NCBI GenBank assembly: GCA_963749655.1
Contig: CAVVOB010000032.1
Coordinates: 64,603 to 128,602, forward strand
Length of the DNA: 64,000 nt
Source: Nitrospirota bacterium
Lineage (GTDB): Bacteria; Nitrospirota; UBA9217
Reading direction: 5' to 3'
In this document: positions 51,782 through 55,578 of the stretch, piece after piece
Layout of the letters: every line of letters begins with the position of its first letter
How positions within the stretch are numbered: position 1 is the first letter of the stretch
The notes under the pieces: model-generated
Told to the model about the DNA's origin: nothing
Database searches by the model: none
What the model saw: the letters and a program-made list of their open reading frames with translations, nothing else
Program-made: the position numbers and the translations under genes

Positions 51782-52456
51782 TTACAGCTCCTGAAGCGAT
51801 CCGAGGTTCATACGAAGCATCCGCTTGGTCTGTTTTGCCAGGTCCGTATTATGCGTGACCATGAGGAAGGTGATATCGTCGGCCTCATTCATGGTCCGGA
51901 AAAAGTTCATCATATCCTGCTCCGTCTCCTCATCGAGGTCTCCCGTCGGTTCGTCGGCGAGCATCAGGGACGGGTTGTTCATAAATGCCCGTGCAATCGC
52001 CACGCGCCGTTGCTGTCCTCCGGACAATTGGGCCGGATAGCCGTTGATCTTGTCAACCAGGCCGACCATGCGCAGCAGGTCCTTCGCCTTCTTGCCGCAT
52101 CGCTGTGCGGTCCGCTCCCGGCCTGAAGACCGTGGGCAGCAGAAGGTTCTCTCTGACCGTGAGCATCGGAAGAAGACTGGCGAACTGGAACATGAATCCG
52201 ATCCGTTAGCAGCGGTATTCGGAGATCGGATCGCGTTCGAGCGCGGCGATATCGTCGTCCATCGAACAAGACCTTGCCCGAGGAGGGAGCGGTAATTCCG
52301 CCGATCATGGACAGCAGCGTCGTCTTGCCTGAACCGGAGTGCCCGACGATCGAGATAAAATCGCCCTTTCGATCCGCAGCGAAACCGATCGAACCGCATC
52401 GATGCGTTATCGACGAGGTAGGTCTTGGTGATATTCTCAAGACTGATCTGCGGCAC
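51782..52456 (-). CDS. ABC transporter ATP-binding protein, LolD/MacB-like (frameshifted)
   Basis: GTG start after [34 protein letters not shown] across frames. Confidence 0.85.
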
Positions 52457-52458
52457 GA

Positions 52459-53658
52459 TTACTCCTGTTTGATCACGAGCAGGGGTTCCAGCTTTTTGAG
52501 CCGTTGGAGCGGCGACAGCGCCCCCAGCACGCAGATGCCGGTGCCGAACAACAGCCCGACAACAGCAATGAGGACGCGGGTGAACGCGGTGAGGTCTACC
52601 GGGAGGTTCTTCAGGATCGAAAAACTTTGCGCCATGAAAGATCGTCAGCGACGTTCCGGCGACAATGCCGACGATGCTCCCTATTGCCCCGAGCACGAGG
52701 ACCTCAAAGAGGAACAATTTGACCACATGCCGCTCTTTCGCGCCGAGGGCGCGCATGATGCCGACTTCCCGCGTCCGTTCGTTCGCAATGGCGGTGAAGA
52801 TCGCCCACACCAGGAAGAGCGAAAGTATCGTTGAAAGGACCATGGTGAGATAGAAGATCTTGCTGATGTCCCCCAGGGTGGTGATCAGGCTTTTGCCGAT
52901 GTCCTTGCGCATCACCACGTCCACCTCGATGATGTTGTTCTCGATCTCGGACATGACCTTATAGAGGTCTGCATCCTTTTTGATCTTGGCGAAGATCACC
53001 GATATCTGGTCCGGCTTGATTCCGGTATCGCTGTTCTTGATGATCTCTTCGATATTCTCGTCGCTGATAAACACCGCGGTATCGAGGCCCGAGCCGGTCT
53101 TGTCCAGAACGCCGACCATGCTGAACACGCTGCCGAACAGCTTGCCTTCCATCTCCACCAGTCCCAGACTGATATTATAGGCAGACTCGCTGCCGACGAT
53201 GGCCTCCCCTTTGCGGAGCTTCCGCCCCAGCTTTTCCTTCAGCCAGGGCGTCACAATAAAGTCGGTCTCCTGATTAAAAGCAACGACCATGGACGACGGC
53301 ACGGAACAGCAGAAGCCGGTGAGCGTGACCAGATAGGTCTGGTAGCGGAGACCTTATCGATGCCGTCGATCTTTTTGATCCGGTCGAGAAAGGACTTGTT
53401 CATGTAGAAGGACGTGGCGCGGTTCTCGACAAGAATGTCCTCTGCCGCTCCCCGGGCTCCGGTAGGGACGATCAGAAGGTCGGCGCCGAGGCGGTCCGAC
53501 GTCAGTTTGATGCTCGAATTAACGCGCGTGACAAAGGAGAGGGCAAAGACGAGGGCAGCCACCATCAGGGACAGGGCCGCCACGAGGATTCCGGTCCGGA
53601 GAGGACGGCGGCGCAGGTTCCGGAAGGCCATGGATGAGAGCGTAAATTGATCAGACAT
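52459..53658 (-). CDS. MacB/FtsX-type ABC permease with periplasmic Cys-Cys motif (frameshifted)
   Basis: RNLRRRPLRT, RLGADLLIVP, YLVTLTGFCCSVP, ERTREVGIMRALGA. Confidence 0.85.
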
Positions 53659-53677
53659 AAGGGTTTCGTAGACAAAT

Positions 53678-53713
53678 AAAAACCTTCTCTGCGGAATATC
53701 CCGCAGAGAAGGT
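53678..53713 (-). terminator. Intra-cluster Rho-independent terminator
   Basis: ACCTTCTCTGCGG-GATATT-CCGCAGAGAAGGT-TTTT on the minus strand, between the propeller gene and the permease. Confidence 0.8.
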
Positions 53714-53744
53714 CAGGACGTACCAGCTATGCTGTGATTTAATA

Positions 53745-54900
53745 CTACTTCTTCCAGTTCGTGTCAAGGCCGCAGAGAACGGCGTTCTTGTCGCCGAGAC
53801 CCATGCCCTTGTGGCAGCCGAGGCAGACCGAGGTGGCCTTGTCGGACAACTTTCTTCGCGTCAACATCATAGAACATGAGCGTGCCGTCGGTGATGTCAA
53901 CGCCCTTGCCCTCTTTTACGATCGCCTTGCCGTCGGCATCGCAGCCGGCAGTGACGGTGCGCACCGTCAGCATGGCATATTTATCGTCAGGCGTGGTCTG
54001 TGCATCGTGGATCTGGTTCCCGGCCGGCATCATCTTCTCGTCGATCAGGGTCAGGGTCTTTGCATCGAGGACCCAGAGACGGTCGCCTGCAGACTGATAG
54101 ATGCGCGTACCGTCGTTCGAGAAGTACTGGCGGAAGGTGATGGTCTTGTCCGGCGCGCCCTTCAGCGTGTTCTTGGCGATCTTCTTCATCTTGCCCTTTT
54201 CGAGCGATGCCATATCAACCAGGATAAAGTCGATATCGCCGTTGCCCTTGCCGTTCCTGTTGCCTGATTGATGACCAGGAGGAAGGTCTTCATGTCAGGA
54301 GAATTGATGCCGTGCGTGAATTTGTACGTCCCCTTTTCATAGCCCAGGTCGCTCACCCATACCCGCTCCTTGTGTTTCATCGTGGCCTTGTCAAAAACAT
54401 CAACATAGCCTTCCTGGCCCATGAACACCGGCATGTAAATACTTGCTGCTCTGGCCGGATGCGCAATAGAGCGGCGGCTTCGAGCCACCGGCGCTTCGGC
54501 ATCAGGGGTCATGGCAACATCCATGATCACGTTGCCGGTTTTGAGGTCGGACTTGCCGACATGCTGCTTGCCCTTCGGGTCAAGAACATAGGTTGACCAG
54601 AACATGGTGTTCGAATCGTTCGCATCGATCCGTGCATCATGGGTCGGATGGGTCTTCTTGTCCCCGATGACCATGCGGTCCAGGTTCGTCGACCTTGATC
54701 GGCTCATTTTCATTGCTCGGGTCGATGGTCACATCGGCCTTGGCAAAATGGCCGCCCATGCCGGCAACGTATACGGTGGCGGAGTAGGTGGGACCGGCGG
54801 CTACGGCAACCGGCGCCTTGGAGCCCACGGTGGAAAAAGTGAGGTAGCTGAAACACACAACGGCCAGAAGCAGCATCACTACTGCAATTCTTTTCATCAT
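53745..54900 (-). CDS. Exported beta-propeller protein with C-terminal CxxCH (frameshifted)
   Basis: ORFs 54637..54900, 54186..54713 and 53764..54213 plus re-framed end DKATSVCLGCHKGMGLGDKNAVLCGLDTNWKK*; SPD/SND/TPD blade turns. Confidence 0.75.
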
Positions 54901-55086
54901 AACATCCCCCGTTCTTTTGTTGTTATTCAGTCGTTGTTTCTTTCAGACACTGGCATTCCGAAACAGATCTATCGGCTTATTTTTTGCGACCACCCCCTTT
55001 TCAAAGCATAATCACCTGAATACTGGTGCATCAAGCTAACATACTTGGTCCTGATGCGTCAACGTCAAATTGAAATTTGGGATACC

Positions 55087-55578
55087 TTATCGGCGGCCGG
55101 CGGCAGCGCCATAGGCCGGCACCACCGTCACCGGCACGGATATGACGCCGGACTTTTTGAAGGTAAGGACCATCGTAAACCTGTCTCCCGCTTTGATATC
55201 CTTCGGCAGACGAAAAACCATGATATGTTGTCCGAACGGCCGCAACCGGGCAGTCTCCCTGGGACGGACCAGGATGGCGTCCGTTTTCACCATCTTGCCG
55301 TCCTGCATGTCGTGGAGCTCGACAACTGCCGACGGGATATCGAGCCGGGCGCTGATCAGCGAATCAGCACCGGGACCGGAATTCGCAATTTCCATGAACA
55401 CCGATGCCGATCCGATTATAATGGGAGAAAGCAGCGCTTCTGCCGTCCTGACCTCGAGGACGGGATCACCGGATTTACACCCGATGAGGTGCGGCAGAGA
55501 CGCCGCAAACAGGAACATCAGGAACGGGAAGATCACCCTCGAACTTTGCGGGCGGACGGAGGGGATGCTATTTCGCAC
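55087..55578 (-). CDS. Copper chaperone PCu(A)C family (possible lipoprotein)
   Basis: FMEIANSG..D.L, VELHDMQDGKM, LRPFGQHIM, LTFKKSG. Confidence 0.88.
   Translation of the reverse strand: MRNSIPSVRPQSSRVIFPFLMFLFAASLPHLIGCKSGDPVLEVRTAEALLSPIIIGSASVFMEIANSGPGADSLISARLDIPSAVVELHDMQDGKMVKTDAILVRPRETARLRPFGQHIMVFRLPKDIKAGDRFTMVLTFKKSGVISVPVTVVPAYGAAAGRR

What the first reader, a model, noticed from the sequence alone, without database searches (positions are those of the whole stretch)
51782..55578. Candidate undescribed copper-enzyme module: PCu(A)C chaperone, His/Cys beta-propeller cytochrome and Cys-Cys ABC transporter
Seen: four co-oriented genes in the order PCu(A)C, exported propeller, strong terminator, MacB-type permease, ATPase. 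No CuA protein, heme-copper oxidase or nosZ is present in the window. Established: PCu(A)C delivers Cu(I), and copper propeller enzymes such as NosZ rely on an ABC maturation complex. Inference: the propeller is an abundant periplasmic copper enzyme or copper store, and the chaperone and ABC system are its lower-expressed maturation machinery. The intervening terminator fits that stoichiometry.
Basis: partly seen in the sequence, partly recalled or inferred. Interest (0 to 1): 0.82.

Follow-up and report, generated by a model that had tools for sequence, protein, structure and literature searches.

The report
Undescribed copper-haem propeller enzyme module
An unstudied secreted protein of sulfur-cycling anaerobic bacteria carries a haem site over a ring of metal-binding residues, travels with copper chaperones and its own ABC motor, and is among the most abundant proteins in one cultured relative grown on nitrate, so it is probably an undiscovered copper enzyme of the sulfur or nitrogen cycle.

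Summary
The four genes are real; their breaks look like assembly indels. The central gene belongs to an unnamed family: a Sec-exported six-bladed beta-propeller with one CxxCH and a ring of conserved His/Cys at the blade tips. It was found in 71 of 201 Nitrospirota genomes, all dsrA-positive. A MacB-type permease with a periplasmic Cys-Cys follows it in 66 of 74 loci, behind a conserved hairpin. PCu(A)C or NosL occurs in 62 of 65 NosZ-free carriers but 4 of 123 NosZ-free non-carriers. Published proteomics of Desulfurivibrio dismutans shows the orthologue as the 21st most abundant protein on formate plus nitrate (rank 1495 on sulfur), about 110-fold above its ATPase, with NosL co-induced and CopA unchanged. 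Best reading: a periplasmic Cu/haem-c oxidoreductase with a dedicated metal-loading motor, working like thiocyanate dehydrogenase or NosZ but a member of neither. Copper binding and substrate are untested. A reduced sulfur compound is my first guess (YeeE/TusA/DsrE neighbours), N2O/NO the second. PCu(A)C is one of two interchangeable chaperones, and this genome has another CuA client. The scan had noted this family twice (e1-764946, e1-6618884).

The parts
55087..55578 (-). PCu(A)C periplasmic Cu(I) chaperone; probable lipoprotein (LIGC lipobox read by eye)
   Evidence: PF04314 2.7e-19, above cut-off; H-X6-M-X21-H-X-M intact; directly upstream of the propeller in 26 of 75 loci with upstream room
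53745..54900 (-). Exported six-bladed beta-propeller with one haem-c motif and a His/Cys ring (381 aa in intact orthologues); five apparent indel breaks near 54693, 54490, 54440, 54260 and 53855
   Evidence: 6 pieces 72-88% identical to an intact orthologue; AF2 model of the orthologue, pLDDT 93.9, 24 strands; best structural matches are YWTD propellers; conserved residues
53811..53825 (-). CxxCH haem-c attachment motif (C356/C359/H360 in orthologue numbering), in the loop between the last blade and the closing strand
   Evidence: C356 114/114, C359 112/113, H360 112/113 aligned rows; position from DSSP
53681..53714 (-). Intrinsic-terminator-like hairpin with U-tract between propeller and permease
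   Evidence: conserved: hairpin of -12 kcal/mol or better in 66 of 66 loci (33 of 66 control windows), with U-tract in 40 of 66 (2 of 66 controls)
52459..53658 (-). Type VII (MacB/LolE/HrtB-like) ABC permease, 398 aa in orthologues; two apparent indel breaks near 53343 and 52630
   Evidence: FtsX + MacB_PCD domains; Foldseek best hits LolE, MacB, HrtB; 3 pieces 79-90% identical to an orthologue
53306..53311 (-). Cys-Cys motif (C116-C117) in a flexible loop of the permease periplasmic domain
   Evidence: invariant in the 83 selected propeller-linked permeases, down to 24% identity (selection described in the Full report section); low-pLDDT loop 114-119 between two strands
51782..52456 (-). LolD/MacB-type ABC ATPase; apparent indel breaks near 52400 and 52115
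   Evidence: ABC_tran; orthologue nearest to LolD, below its cut-off; pieces

Best explanation
The propeller is an abundant periplasmic Cu/haem-c oxidoreductase. It is exported by Sec and receives one covalent haem c (inferred from the signal peptide and CxxCH). A multi-ligand metal site forms at the mouth of the propeller tunnel from residues at the start of five of the six inner strands (H86, C144, H194, H295, C373) plus H50 and M158, with R254 and R311 as likely anion-binding residues; the haem loop lies on the same face and passes electrons in or out (residue positions shown from conservation and DSSP; metal binding and geometry inferred). PCu(A)C or NosL brings Cu(I); the type VII ABC motor holds it, or keeps the client thiols reactive, on its periplasmic Cys-Cys loop and uses ATP to load the propeller, as NosDFY does for NosZ (inferred). 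The hairpin keeps the loader about 100-fold below the enzyme (ratio shown in one relative). For the reaction I commit to oxidation of a reduced sulfur compound (sulfide, polysulfide or a C-S compound), thiocyanate-dehydrogenase-like. The sulfane product would go to YeeE/TusA/DsrEFH-II and the Dsr pathway when a high-potential acceptor such as nitrate is present. Probability that it is a Cu/haem enzyme with this loader: about 0.65, of which about 0.35 for a sulfur substrate, 0.22 for an N-oxide and 0.08 for something else.
For: Ligand-type residues conserved in 106-114 of about 113-115 rows, and in 28-36 of 35-37 rows under 55% identity. A divergent clade swaps H194 to Cys and F253 to His, keeping the ring filled and giving an odd number of ring cysteines. 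Adjacent permease in 66 of 74 loci with downstream room; CC permease within about 3 kb in 17 of 20 divergent loci. PCu(A)C in 44 of 71 carriers vs 2 of 130 non-carriers; NosL 62 of 71 vs 8 of 130, 5 of those 8 having NosZ; either chaperone in 62 of 65 NosZ-free carriers vs 4 of 123 (tallied in 113). PCu(A)C is adjacent in all three deep clades of the tree. D. dismutans orthologue RS06555: riBAQ 5.5e-3, rank 21 on formate+nitrate, vs 1.8e-5, rank 1495 on S8; log2FC -5.15, p 4.4e-5; ATPase 5.0e-5; NosL RS11255 -3.09. Sulfur link: dsrA in 71 of 71 carriers, YTD-type DsrE in 62 of 71; YeeE directly upstream in 7 of 20 divergent loci; this genome's C12 paralogue lies inside a DsrE-rhodanese-propeller-permease-YeeE-TusA run; sulfur-relay or ExtKL genes in 25 of 80 loci; YeeE RS10965 -1.6, YedF -2.6 and ExtKL -3.9 move with it. 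TcDH precedent: a Cu propeller followed by ABC subunits and copCD (PMC5328954, passages). The nearest other Atlas cluster carries the automatic name 'putative methanethiol oxidase' (lead only).
Against: No metal measurement; no coordinates were available to measure distances between ligands. The protein is about 35-fold lower (paper's log2FC; raw riBAQ ratio about 300) under S8 disproportionation, and D. dismutans does not grow on sulfide plus nitrate (PMC12142623, passage), which fits an N-oxide substrate at least as well. dsrA co-occurrence is confounded by phylogeny: 41 dsrA-positive genomes lack the gene and 18 of them have DsrE-II. The D. dismutans permease is split and was not detected, yet the propeller is abundant. 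8 of 74 loci have no adjacent permease, and 2 of 20 divergent loci have none nearby. 3 of 71 carriers have neither chaperone. This genome has a CuA-type oxidase that PCu(A)C could serve. Kin are not independent, so the genome counts overstate the association.
Confidence: 0.65

Rival explanations
1. Same Cu/haem enzyme and loader, but it reduces a nitrogen oxide (N2O, NO or nitrite): a convergent NosZ-like enzyme with haem c in place of CuA. The neighbouring YeeE/TusA/DsrE genes would supply sulfide for a Cu-S cluster. (This 0.22 is part of the 0.65 above.)
For: Fourth most nitrate-induced quantified protein in D. dismutans and more abundant than the octahaem nitrite reductase RS04220 (rank 21 vs 78). 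NosL, described as a dedicated CuZ chaperone (PMC6530538, search listing and start of abstract), tracks the family in NosZ-free genomes, 56 of 65 vs 3 of 123. No nosZ found in G214, G215, G217, G048 or G000. Paralogues score weakly to the L-NosZ model (33-49 bits).
Against: Canonical Nap or Nar in only 15 of 71 carriers (21 of 71 counting sub-cut-off Nap hits), vs 8 of 41 dsrA-positive non-carriers; non-canonical reductases would be missed. 6 carriers already have NosZ. Hcp, a nitrosative-stress marker, was higher on S8 (+2.39). Only four conserved His plus two Cys, against the seven His of CuZ (recalled). No cupredoxin domain.
Confidence: 0.22
2. A haem enzyme, or a non-copper (Zn/Fe/Ni) metalloprotein, in which the His/Cys ring is the distal pocket of the haem or binds another metal. 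The Cys-Cys permease handles haem or thiol redox like HrtBA, and the copper chaperones serve other clients.
For: The haem motif lies on the same face as the ring; closest sequence neighbours include hydrazine synthase beta, NirN and NirF; the permease fold matches the haem extractor HrtB; TlpA/ResA neighbours in 5 of 80 loci; NosL forms a heterometal site (PMC8457098, title in search listing).
Against: Two unrelated Cu chaperones sit in the operon in separate clades, and PCu(A)C is almost confined to carriers (44 of its 46 genomes).
Confidence: 0.17
3. A copper store, buffer or uptake-binding protein (AztD- or Fet-like) without catalytic activity, made when copper is soluble (no sulfide).
For: High abundance; induction coincides with a culture without added sulfur; FtrD-like (DUF2318) genes, known from metal-uptake clusters (recalled), in 17 of 80 loci; Cys/His/Met-rich ring.
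Against: CopA RS11100 (-0.36, p 0.07) and HMA protein RS10340 (-0.12) unchanged; no CueR- or Fur-type motif in 78 upstream regions (consensus patterns recalled); an invariant haem-c motif and two invariant Arg point to redox catalysis on an anion; type VII ABC systems act on periplasmic clients rather than import (recalled).
Confidence: 0.12
4. The PCu(A)C gene is a bystander serving the oxidase on C13, and the propeller-ABC pair has a non-redox envelope role.
For: COX1/COX2 genes exist in this genome and no PCu(A)C was seen beside them; the PCu(A)C start overlaps the upstream TPR gene.
Against: PCu(A)C stays beside the propeller in unrelated genomic contexts, upstream or downstream, in 29 of 80 loci and in two divergent clades; a second PCu(A)C exists on C19.
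Confidence: 0.06

Closest known systems
Thiocyanate dehydrogenase (TcDH) of Thioalkalivibrio, with its ABC subunits, CopCD and cytochrome c552
   Same: Periplasmic propeller with metal ligands in the central tunnel, followed by ABC subunits and flanked by copper-handling genes; acts on a sulfur compound and passes electrons to a c-type haem (PMC5328954 and PMC9456337, passages). Structural Z 20.3, tied with many propellers; weak sequence match over about 80 residues spanning the last two ligand blades (E 7.5e-7).
   Different: TcDH is seven-bladed, Tat-exported and has no haem of its own. This family is six-bladed, Sec-type, carries its own haem c, has 2-3 ring cysteines and uses PCu(A)C/NosL.
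Nitrous oxide reductase NosZ (clades I/II and lactonase-type clade III) with NosDFY-NosL
   Same: Propeller fold (Z 20.4 to 2iwf), NosL association, an ABC motor as presumed metal loader.
   Different: No cupredoxin/CuA domain; six blades, not seven; four His plus two Cys; no hit near the cut-off of the L-NosZ model (at most 49 bits vs 700); permease is type VII with Cys-Cys rather than NosY; no NosD seen in the loci.
Methanethiol oxidase MtoX / SELENBP1
   Same: Copper propeller acting on a thiol (recalled); nearest other cluster in the language-model search, 0.94; weak SBP56 and MtoX scores for divergent members.
   Different: 36.6 bits against a cut-off of 650; no MauG-like partner seen in the loci; haem-c motif; anaerobic hosts.
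Cytochrome cd1 / NirN / hydrazine synthase beta (YVTN-type propellers)
   Same: Same repeat type.
   Different: Below the cut-off of the hydrazine-synthase-beta model; the haem motif is a short insert in the closing blade, not a separate cytochrome domain.
Type VII ABC mechanotransducers LolCDE, MacB, HrtBA
   Same: Four-helix permease with a periplasmic domain and a LolD-like ATPase.
   Different: Invariant periplasmic Cys-Cys and fixed linkage to a metalloprotein client; no NCBIfam permease model reached its cut-off.

Membership tests
PCu(A)C chaperones | PF04314 above gathering score and H-Xn-M-X21/22-H-X-M Cu(I) motif | tested here: met
   69.5 bits vs 29.4; motif intact here and in 30 of 31 neighbouring homologues; motif definition from a section heading of PMC13006917
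Type VII ABC transporters | FtsX + MacB periplasmic domain, 4-TM fold, LolD-type ATPase | tested here: met
TcDH | Seven-bladed propeller | tested here: not met
   24 strands = 6 blades in a pLDDT-94 model; TcDH is seven-bladed (PMC9456337 passage)
TcDH | Tat signal peptide | tested here: not met
   No twin-arginine motif in the alignment consensuses; short basic/hydrophobic Sec-type leader; no signal predictor was run
TcDH | Trinuclear Cu centre in the tunnel; thiocyanate oxidation | not testable with these tools
   Needs metal analysis and assay
TcDH | ABC subunits and copper-handling genes in the cluster | tested here: met
   Analogous arrangement (PMC5328954 passage); homology of the TcDH-linked permeases to this one was not tested
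NosZ (all clades) | C-terminal cupredoxin (CuA) domain on a seven-bladed propeller | tested here: not met
   The model ends with the closing blade strand; definition from PMC11033732 passage
NosZ (all clades) | Family HMM above cut-off | tested here: not met
   No NCBIfam hit at E 1e-5 for the orthologue; paralogues 33-49 bits vs 700 for NF052460; no TIGR04246 match at the propeller loci of five carriers
NosZ (all clades) | CuZ Cu4S cluster on seven His; N2O reduction | tested here: inconclusive
   Only four conserved His plus two Cys; the seven-His count is recalled; activity not testable
Methanethiol oxidase | NF052453 above cut-off | tested here: not met
   Best 36.6 bits vs 650, in a divergent member only
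c-type cytochrome | CxxCH in an exported protein | tested here: met
   actual haem attachment not testable

The most novel reading that the evidence does not exclude
A third kind of copper-propeller enzyme beside NosZ and TcDH: a thiolate-ligated copper or Cu-S cluster (its Cys2/His/Met inventory resembles CuA plus extra His) in a six-bladed tunnel wired to its own haem c. It would be the first metal centre loaded by a MacB-type mechanotransducer, would explain the orphan NosL and PCu(A)C genes of anaerobic Nitrospirota, and would catalyse either the missing periplasmic entry step of sulfur oxidation in bacteria with reductive-type Dsr or an unrecognised N2O/NO reduction.
Probability: 0.4. Interest if true: 0.9.

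Novelty: new variant of a known kind. Interest (0 to 1): 0.73.

Why it matters
Few copper propeller enzymes are known (NosZ, TcDH, methanethiol oxidase; list recalled), and each brought new chemistry. This family is in 34 of 38 sampled relatives of the host family and about a third of sampled Nitrospirota, groups that are common in aquifers and anoxic sediments and whose sulfur and nitrogen metabolism is mostly inferred from genomes. It accounts for NosL and PCu(A)C genes that have no known client in these genomes. It is directly testable: a cultured, harmless bacterium makes it at about 0.55% of its protein (riBAQ) under a defined condition, annotated only as 'hypothetical protein'. If it reduces N2O it is a hidden sink; if it oxidises a sulfur compound it bears on how bacteria with reductive-type Dsr oxidise sulfur.

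Tried and rejected
Pfam and NCBIfam gave no hit for the intact orthologue. PDB sequence and Foldseek searches gave only generic propellers. A role in elemental-sulfur disproportionation, suggested by the host list, was rejected: the protein is lowest under that condition. Generic copper, oxidative or nitrosative stress responses were rejected as the cause of induction: CopA and HMA flat; SOD, one of two rubrerythrins and Hcp higher on S8; cbb3 subunit II flat. No sigma54, Fnr/HcpR, CueR or Fur pattern (recalled consensus) was clearly enriched in 78 upstream regions; the strict sigma54 pattern matched 1. No sequencing run was listed for the locus, so the indels were not checked on reads. Supplements searched without a hit for the orthologue or its neighbours: PMC12545173 (two spreadsheets of selected genes; one scanned PDF and two large PDFs not readable), PMC5516251, PMC5812927 (one file not searched), PMC8906906. 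Unread supplements could hold expression data. The cluster-7 small protein matches two genes in this genome's C12 DsrE/TusA/YeeE region but was not found in D. dismutans with that query, so its name 'DsrEFH-II subunit' is an inference. The careful tree did not finish; only the quick tree was used. PMC7071890 (TcDH structure) is not held. Literature searches that found no description of the family; most subscription journals are not covered.
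Full report
1. Observation. The four genes lie on the minus strand as described. PCu(A)C passes Pfam's cut-off and keeps its Cu(I) motif. The propeller, permease and ATPase are broken into 6, 3 and at least 3 pieces; the propeller and permease pieces are 72-90% identical to intact orthologues. MltD and the histidine kinase nearby are split in the same way, so I treat the breaks as assembly errors and worked with intact orthologues. 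The hairpin between propeller and permease is strong. It is also conserved: across 66 loci the best hairpin after the stop averaged -27.6 kcal/mol against -12.4 in control windows inside the gene, and 40 of 66 had a U-tract against 2 of 66. The genome (G000, 86.6% complete) belongs with Nitrospirota by the names of its closest homologues. It has two further, intact propeller paralogues, on C12 and C24, each followed by a Cys-Cys permease. It also has a heme-copper oxidase with COX2 on C13, so the lack of a CuA client in the window is no argument.

2. The family. One orthologue found 881 proteins among 5148 candidates; none of the 120 listed had a Pfam domain or a name beyond 'hypothetical'. 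A GTDB scan with one peptide pattern gave 214 relatives, of which 80 were kept: Nitrospirota, Desulfobulbaceae/Desulfurivibrio and one Caldimicrobium. A 115-row profile matched 71 of 201 Nitrospirota genomes (34 of 38 in the host family, 0 of 42 in family f9) and 4 of 251 genomes from the phylum of D. dismutans, 3 of them already known carriers. Pfam and NCBIfam give nothing for the orthologue; divergent members score far below cut-off to L-NosZ, hydrazine synthase beta and MtoX. The AlphaFold model (pLDDT 93.9, pTM 0.87) has 24 strands, i.e. six blades. The best structural matches are YWTD propellers (Z 22-26), with NosZ, TcDH and hydrazine synthase beta tied near Z 20. Assigning blades from DSSP, the inner strands begin with H86, C144, H194, F253-R254, H295 and C373; H50 and M158 lie at strand ends on the same face, and the CxxCH sits in the loop leading into C373. 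Conservation (rows with a residue): H50 111/113, H86 108/113, C144 114/115, M158 106/115, H194 106/115, R254 110/115, H295 113/113, R311 112/113, C373 110/112. In the divergent clades position 194 is Cys and 253 is His (the two alignments share rows), so the ring stays filled with ligand-type residues. Circularly permuted and tandem double forms keep these motifs in both copies. I had no coordinates, so distances are not measured.

3. Partners. In the 80 GTDB loci, 74 had room downstream; 66 had the permease adjacent and 64 of those ORFs showed Cys-Cys. Of 20 divergent loci, 17 had a Cys-Cys permease within about 3 kb, one had a permease without it and two had none. Cys116-Cys117 is invariant in an 83-row alignment. 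Those rows were 60 full-length adjacent permeases plus 23 hand-picked ones; two nearby permeases lacking the motif (the second permease of L029, and L133) and split genes were left out. The permease folds like LolE/MacB/HrtB with the motif in a flexible periplasmic loop. PCu(A)C was in 29 and NosL in 14 of the 80 loci (either: 42), the NosL mostly in a neighbouring convergent operon. In divergent loci NosL (6 of 20) and PCu(A)C (2 of 20) are co-oriented just downstream; two of each were checked by Pfam. On the quick tree PCu(A)C neighbours occur in all three deep clades. Genome-wide, over the same 201 genomes: PCu(A)C 44/71 carriers vs 2/130 non-carriers; NosL 62/71 vs 8/130; NosZ 6/71 vs 7/130; either chaperone in NosZ-free genomes 62/65 vs 4/123 (4/35 among dsrA-positive, NosZ-free non-carriers); dsrA 71/71 vs 41/130; YTD-type DsrE 62/71 vs 20/130; Nap or Nar 15/71 vs 16/130 (tallied in 113). 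Kin are not independent, but the contrast holds within families: genus g12 of the host family lacks propeller, NosL and PCu(A)C in 4 of 4, and in f11 NosL is in 3 of 4 carriers and in 0 of 12 NosZ-free non-carriers. Sulfur-transfer genes recur locally: YeeE directly upstream in 7 of 20 divergent loci (3 confirmed by Pfam, 4 by similarity), sulfur-relay or ExtKL genes in 25 of 80 loci, and the C12 paralogue inside a DsrE, rhodanese, YeeE, TusA run. That cluster type is described as DsrEFH type II/YTD (PMC13293266 and PMC12998232, passages), and ExtKL-type proteins as polysulfide reductases (PMC13510729, abstract; equating ExtKL with its MccSep is my recall).

4. Experimental evidence. D. dismutans AMeS2 has one copy, at 276415-277542, listed in Table S1 of PMC12142623 as RS06555, hypothetical protein: riBAQ 5.5e-3 (rank 21) on formate+nitrate, 1.8e-5 (rank 1495) on S8, log2FC -5.15, p 4.4e-5. 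Its ATPase RS06570 was seen only on nitrate, at 5.0e-5, about 110-fold lower; the permease is split and undetected. It is the fourth most nitrate-shifted quantified protein and more abundant than the octahaem nitrite reductase (rank 78); NosL RS11255 (-3.09), ExtKL (-3.86), YedF (-2.61) and YeeE RS10965 (-1.62) move the same way, while the second NosL (-0.41), CopA (-0.36) and an HMA protein (-0.12) do not, and Hcp, SOD and one rubrerythrin go the other way. No nosZ or PCu(A)C was found in that genome. The main text never names RS06555; its figures were not visible. The comparison changes donor, acceptor and sulfur supply together, so it does not single out nitrate.

5. Mechanism. Shown: export-type leader, haem motif, ligand ring, fixed Cys-Cys motor, conserved hairpin, about 100:1 stoichiometry in one relative, co-occurrence with two unrelated Cu chaperones, condition-specific abundance. 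Inferred: Cu in the ring, electron transfer through the haem, ATP-driven loading by the permease. I put the Cu/haem enzyme model at 0.65. Within it I favour oxidation of a reduced sulfur compound (0.35), because every carrier in the Nitrospirota sample has Dsr, sulfur-transfer genes recur as neighbours in separate clades, most carriers lack Nap/Nar, and TcDH is the nearest working model. Reduction of N2O/NO/nitrite (0.22) explains the proteomics and NosL equally well, and could explain the sulfur genes as suppliers for a Cu-S cluster. A haem-only or other-metal protein (0.17), a copper store or uptake protein (0.12) and a bystander chaperone (0.06) remain.

6. Known systems and novelty. It works like TcDH or NosZ with their ABC and chaperone partners but fails membership of both (blade number, export route, CuA domain, HMM cut-offs), and of MtoX. 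Nine literature searches found no description; most subscription journals are outside that library. What I saw of each paper: passages of PMC6504805, PMC12998232, PMC13293266, PMC13490349, PMC5328954, PMC9456337, PMC13477213, PMC8906906 and PMC11033732; passages, one methods section and supplement rows of PMC12142623; abstract and outline of PMC13510729 and PMC13006917; supplement searches only for PMC12545173, PMC5516251 and PMC5812927; search listings only for PMC6530538 and PMC8457098. The scan had reached the same family twice, with a similar reading (e1-764946; e1-6618884, this genome's C24 paralogue); these are not independent evidence. New here, as far as those notes show, are the proteomic link, the genome-level chaperone and dsrA counts, and the sulfur-relay neighbourhoods. 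Verdict: real, undescribed, directly testable; a new variant of a known kind; interest 0.73.

Noticed in passing
G000:C12:179502-189963 (L013): A paralogous propeller + Cys-Cys permease (no ATPase adjacent) sits inside a sulfur-transfer cluster with DsrE-like genes, an exported rhodanese, a PMT_2 membrane protein, YeeE and TusA.
   Followed up: partly
G000:C24:6680-11154 (L014): Third paralogue, of the Cys3 clade, in an operon with Cys-Cys permease, TPR lipoprotein, NosL and ATPase; a convergent 7-haem cytochrome and cytochrome b pair follows.
   Followed up: partly
L029:8887-10068, L026:8586-9842, L132:7325-9577; P0121-P0124, P0126, P0129, P0152: Circularly permuted lipoprotein forms and tandem double propellers with two haem motifs, some next to a porin gene; suggests a surface-anchored or dimeric form.
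   Followed up: partly
L051, L057, L064, L078, L081, L086, L088, L092, L097-L099, L106, L108: A second module (NosL, usually with an FtrD-like DUF2318 protein, a MacB permease, an ATPase and often a 335-aa membrane protein of no family) often faces the propeller operon; a NosL-TlpA-FtsX-ATPase cluster in D. dismutans (RS11250-11270) is up on nitrate.
   Followed up: partly
L064, L073, L079, L082-L084, L088, L091, L092, L094, L097, L098, L100, L101, L106, L109: A GT2 glycosyltransferase, nearly always with a radical SAM gene, recurs beside the propeller in 16 of 80 loci; unexplained.
   Followed up: no
L111:9257-10529: The D. dismutans permease gene is split into two frames in the public genome, though the propeller is abundant.
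   Followed up: partly
P0198, P0208: Divergent members with lipoprotein leaders that look archaeal by eye; host not determined.
   Followed up: no
window 42553-44857: A split exported M6-type metalloprotease-like gene (HEFGH motif; family name recalled) with a C-terminal CFIATAAYG tail.
   Followed up: no
window 49043-51719: PAS-domain hybrid histidine kinase directly downstream, also present at this place in L016, L024 and L041; could regulate the module or be local only.
   Followed up: no
window 47500-48800 and 60462-62512: MltD-like lytic transglycosylase and DNA ligase genes are split by frameshifts, pointing to systematic indel errors in this contig.
   Followed up: yes
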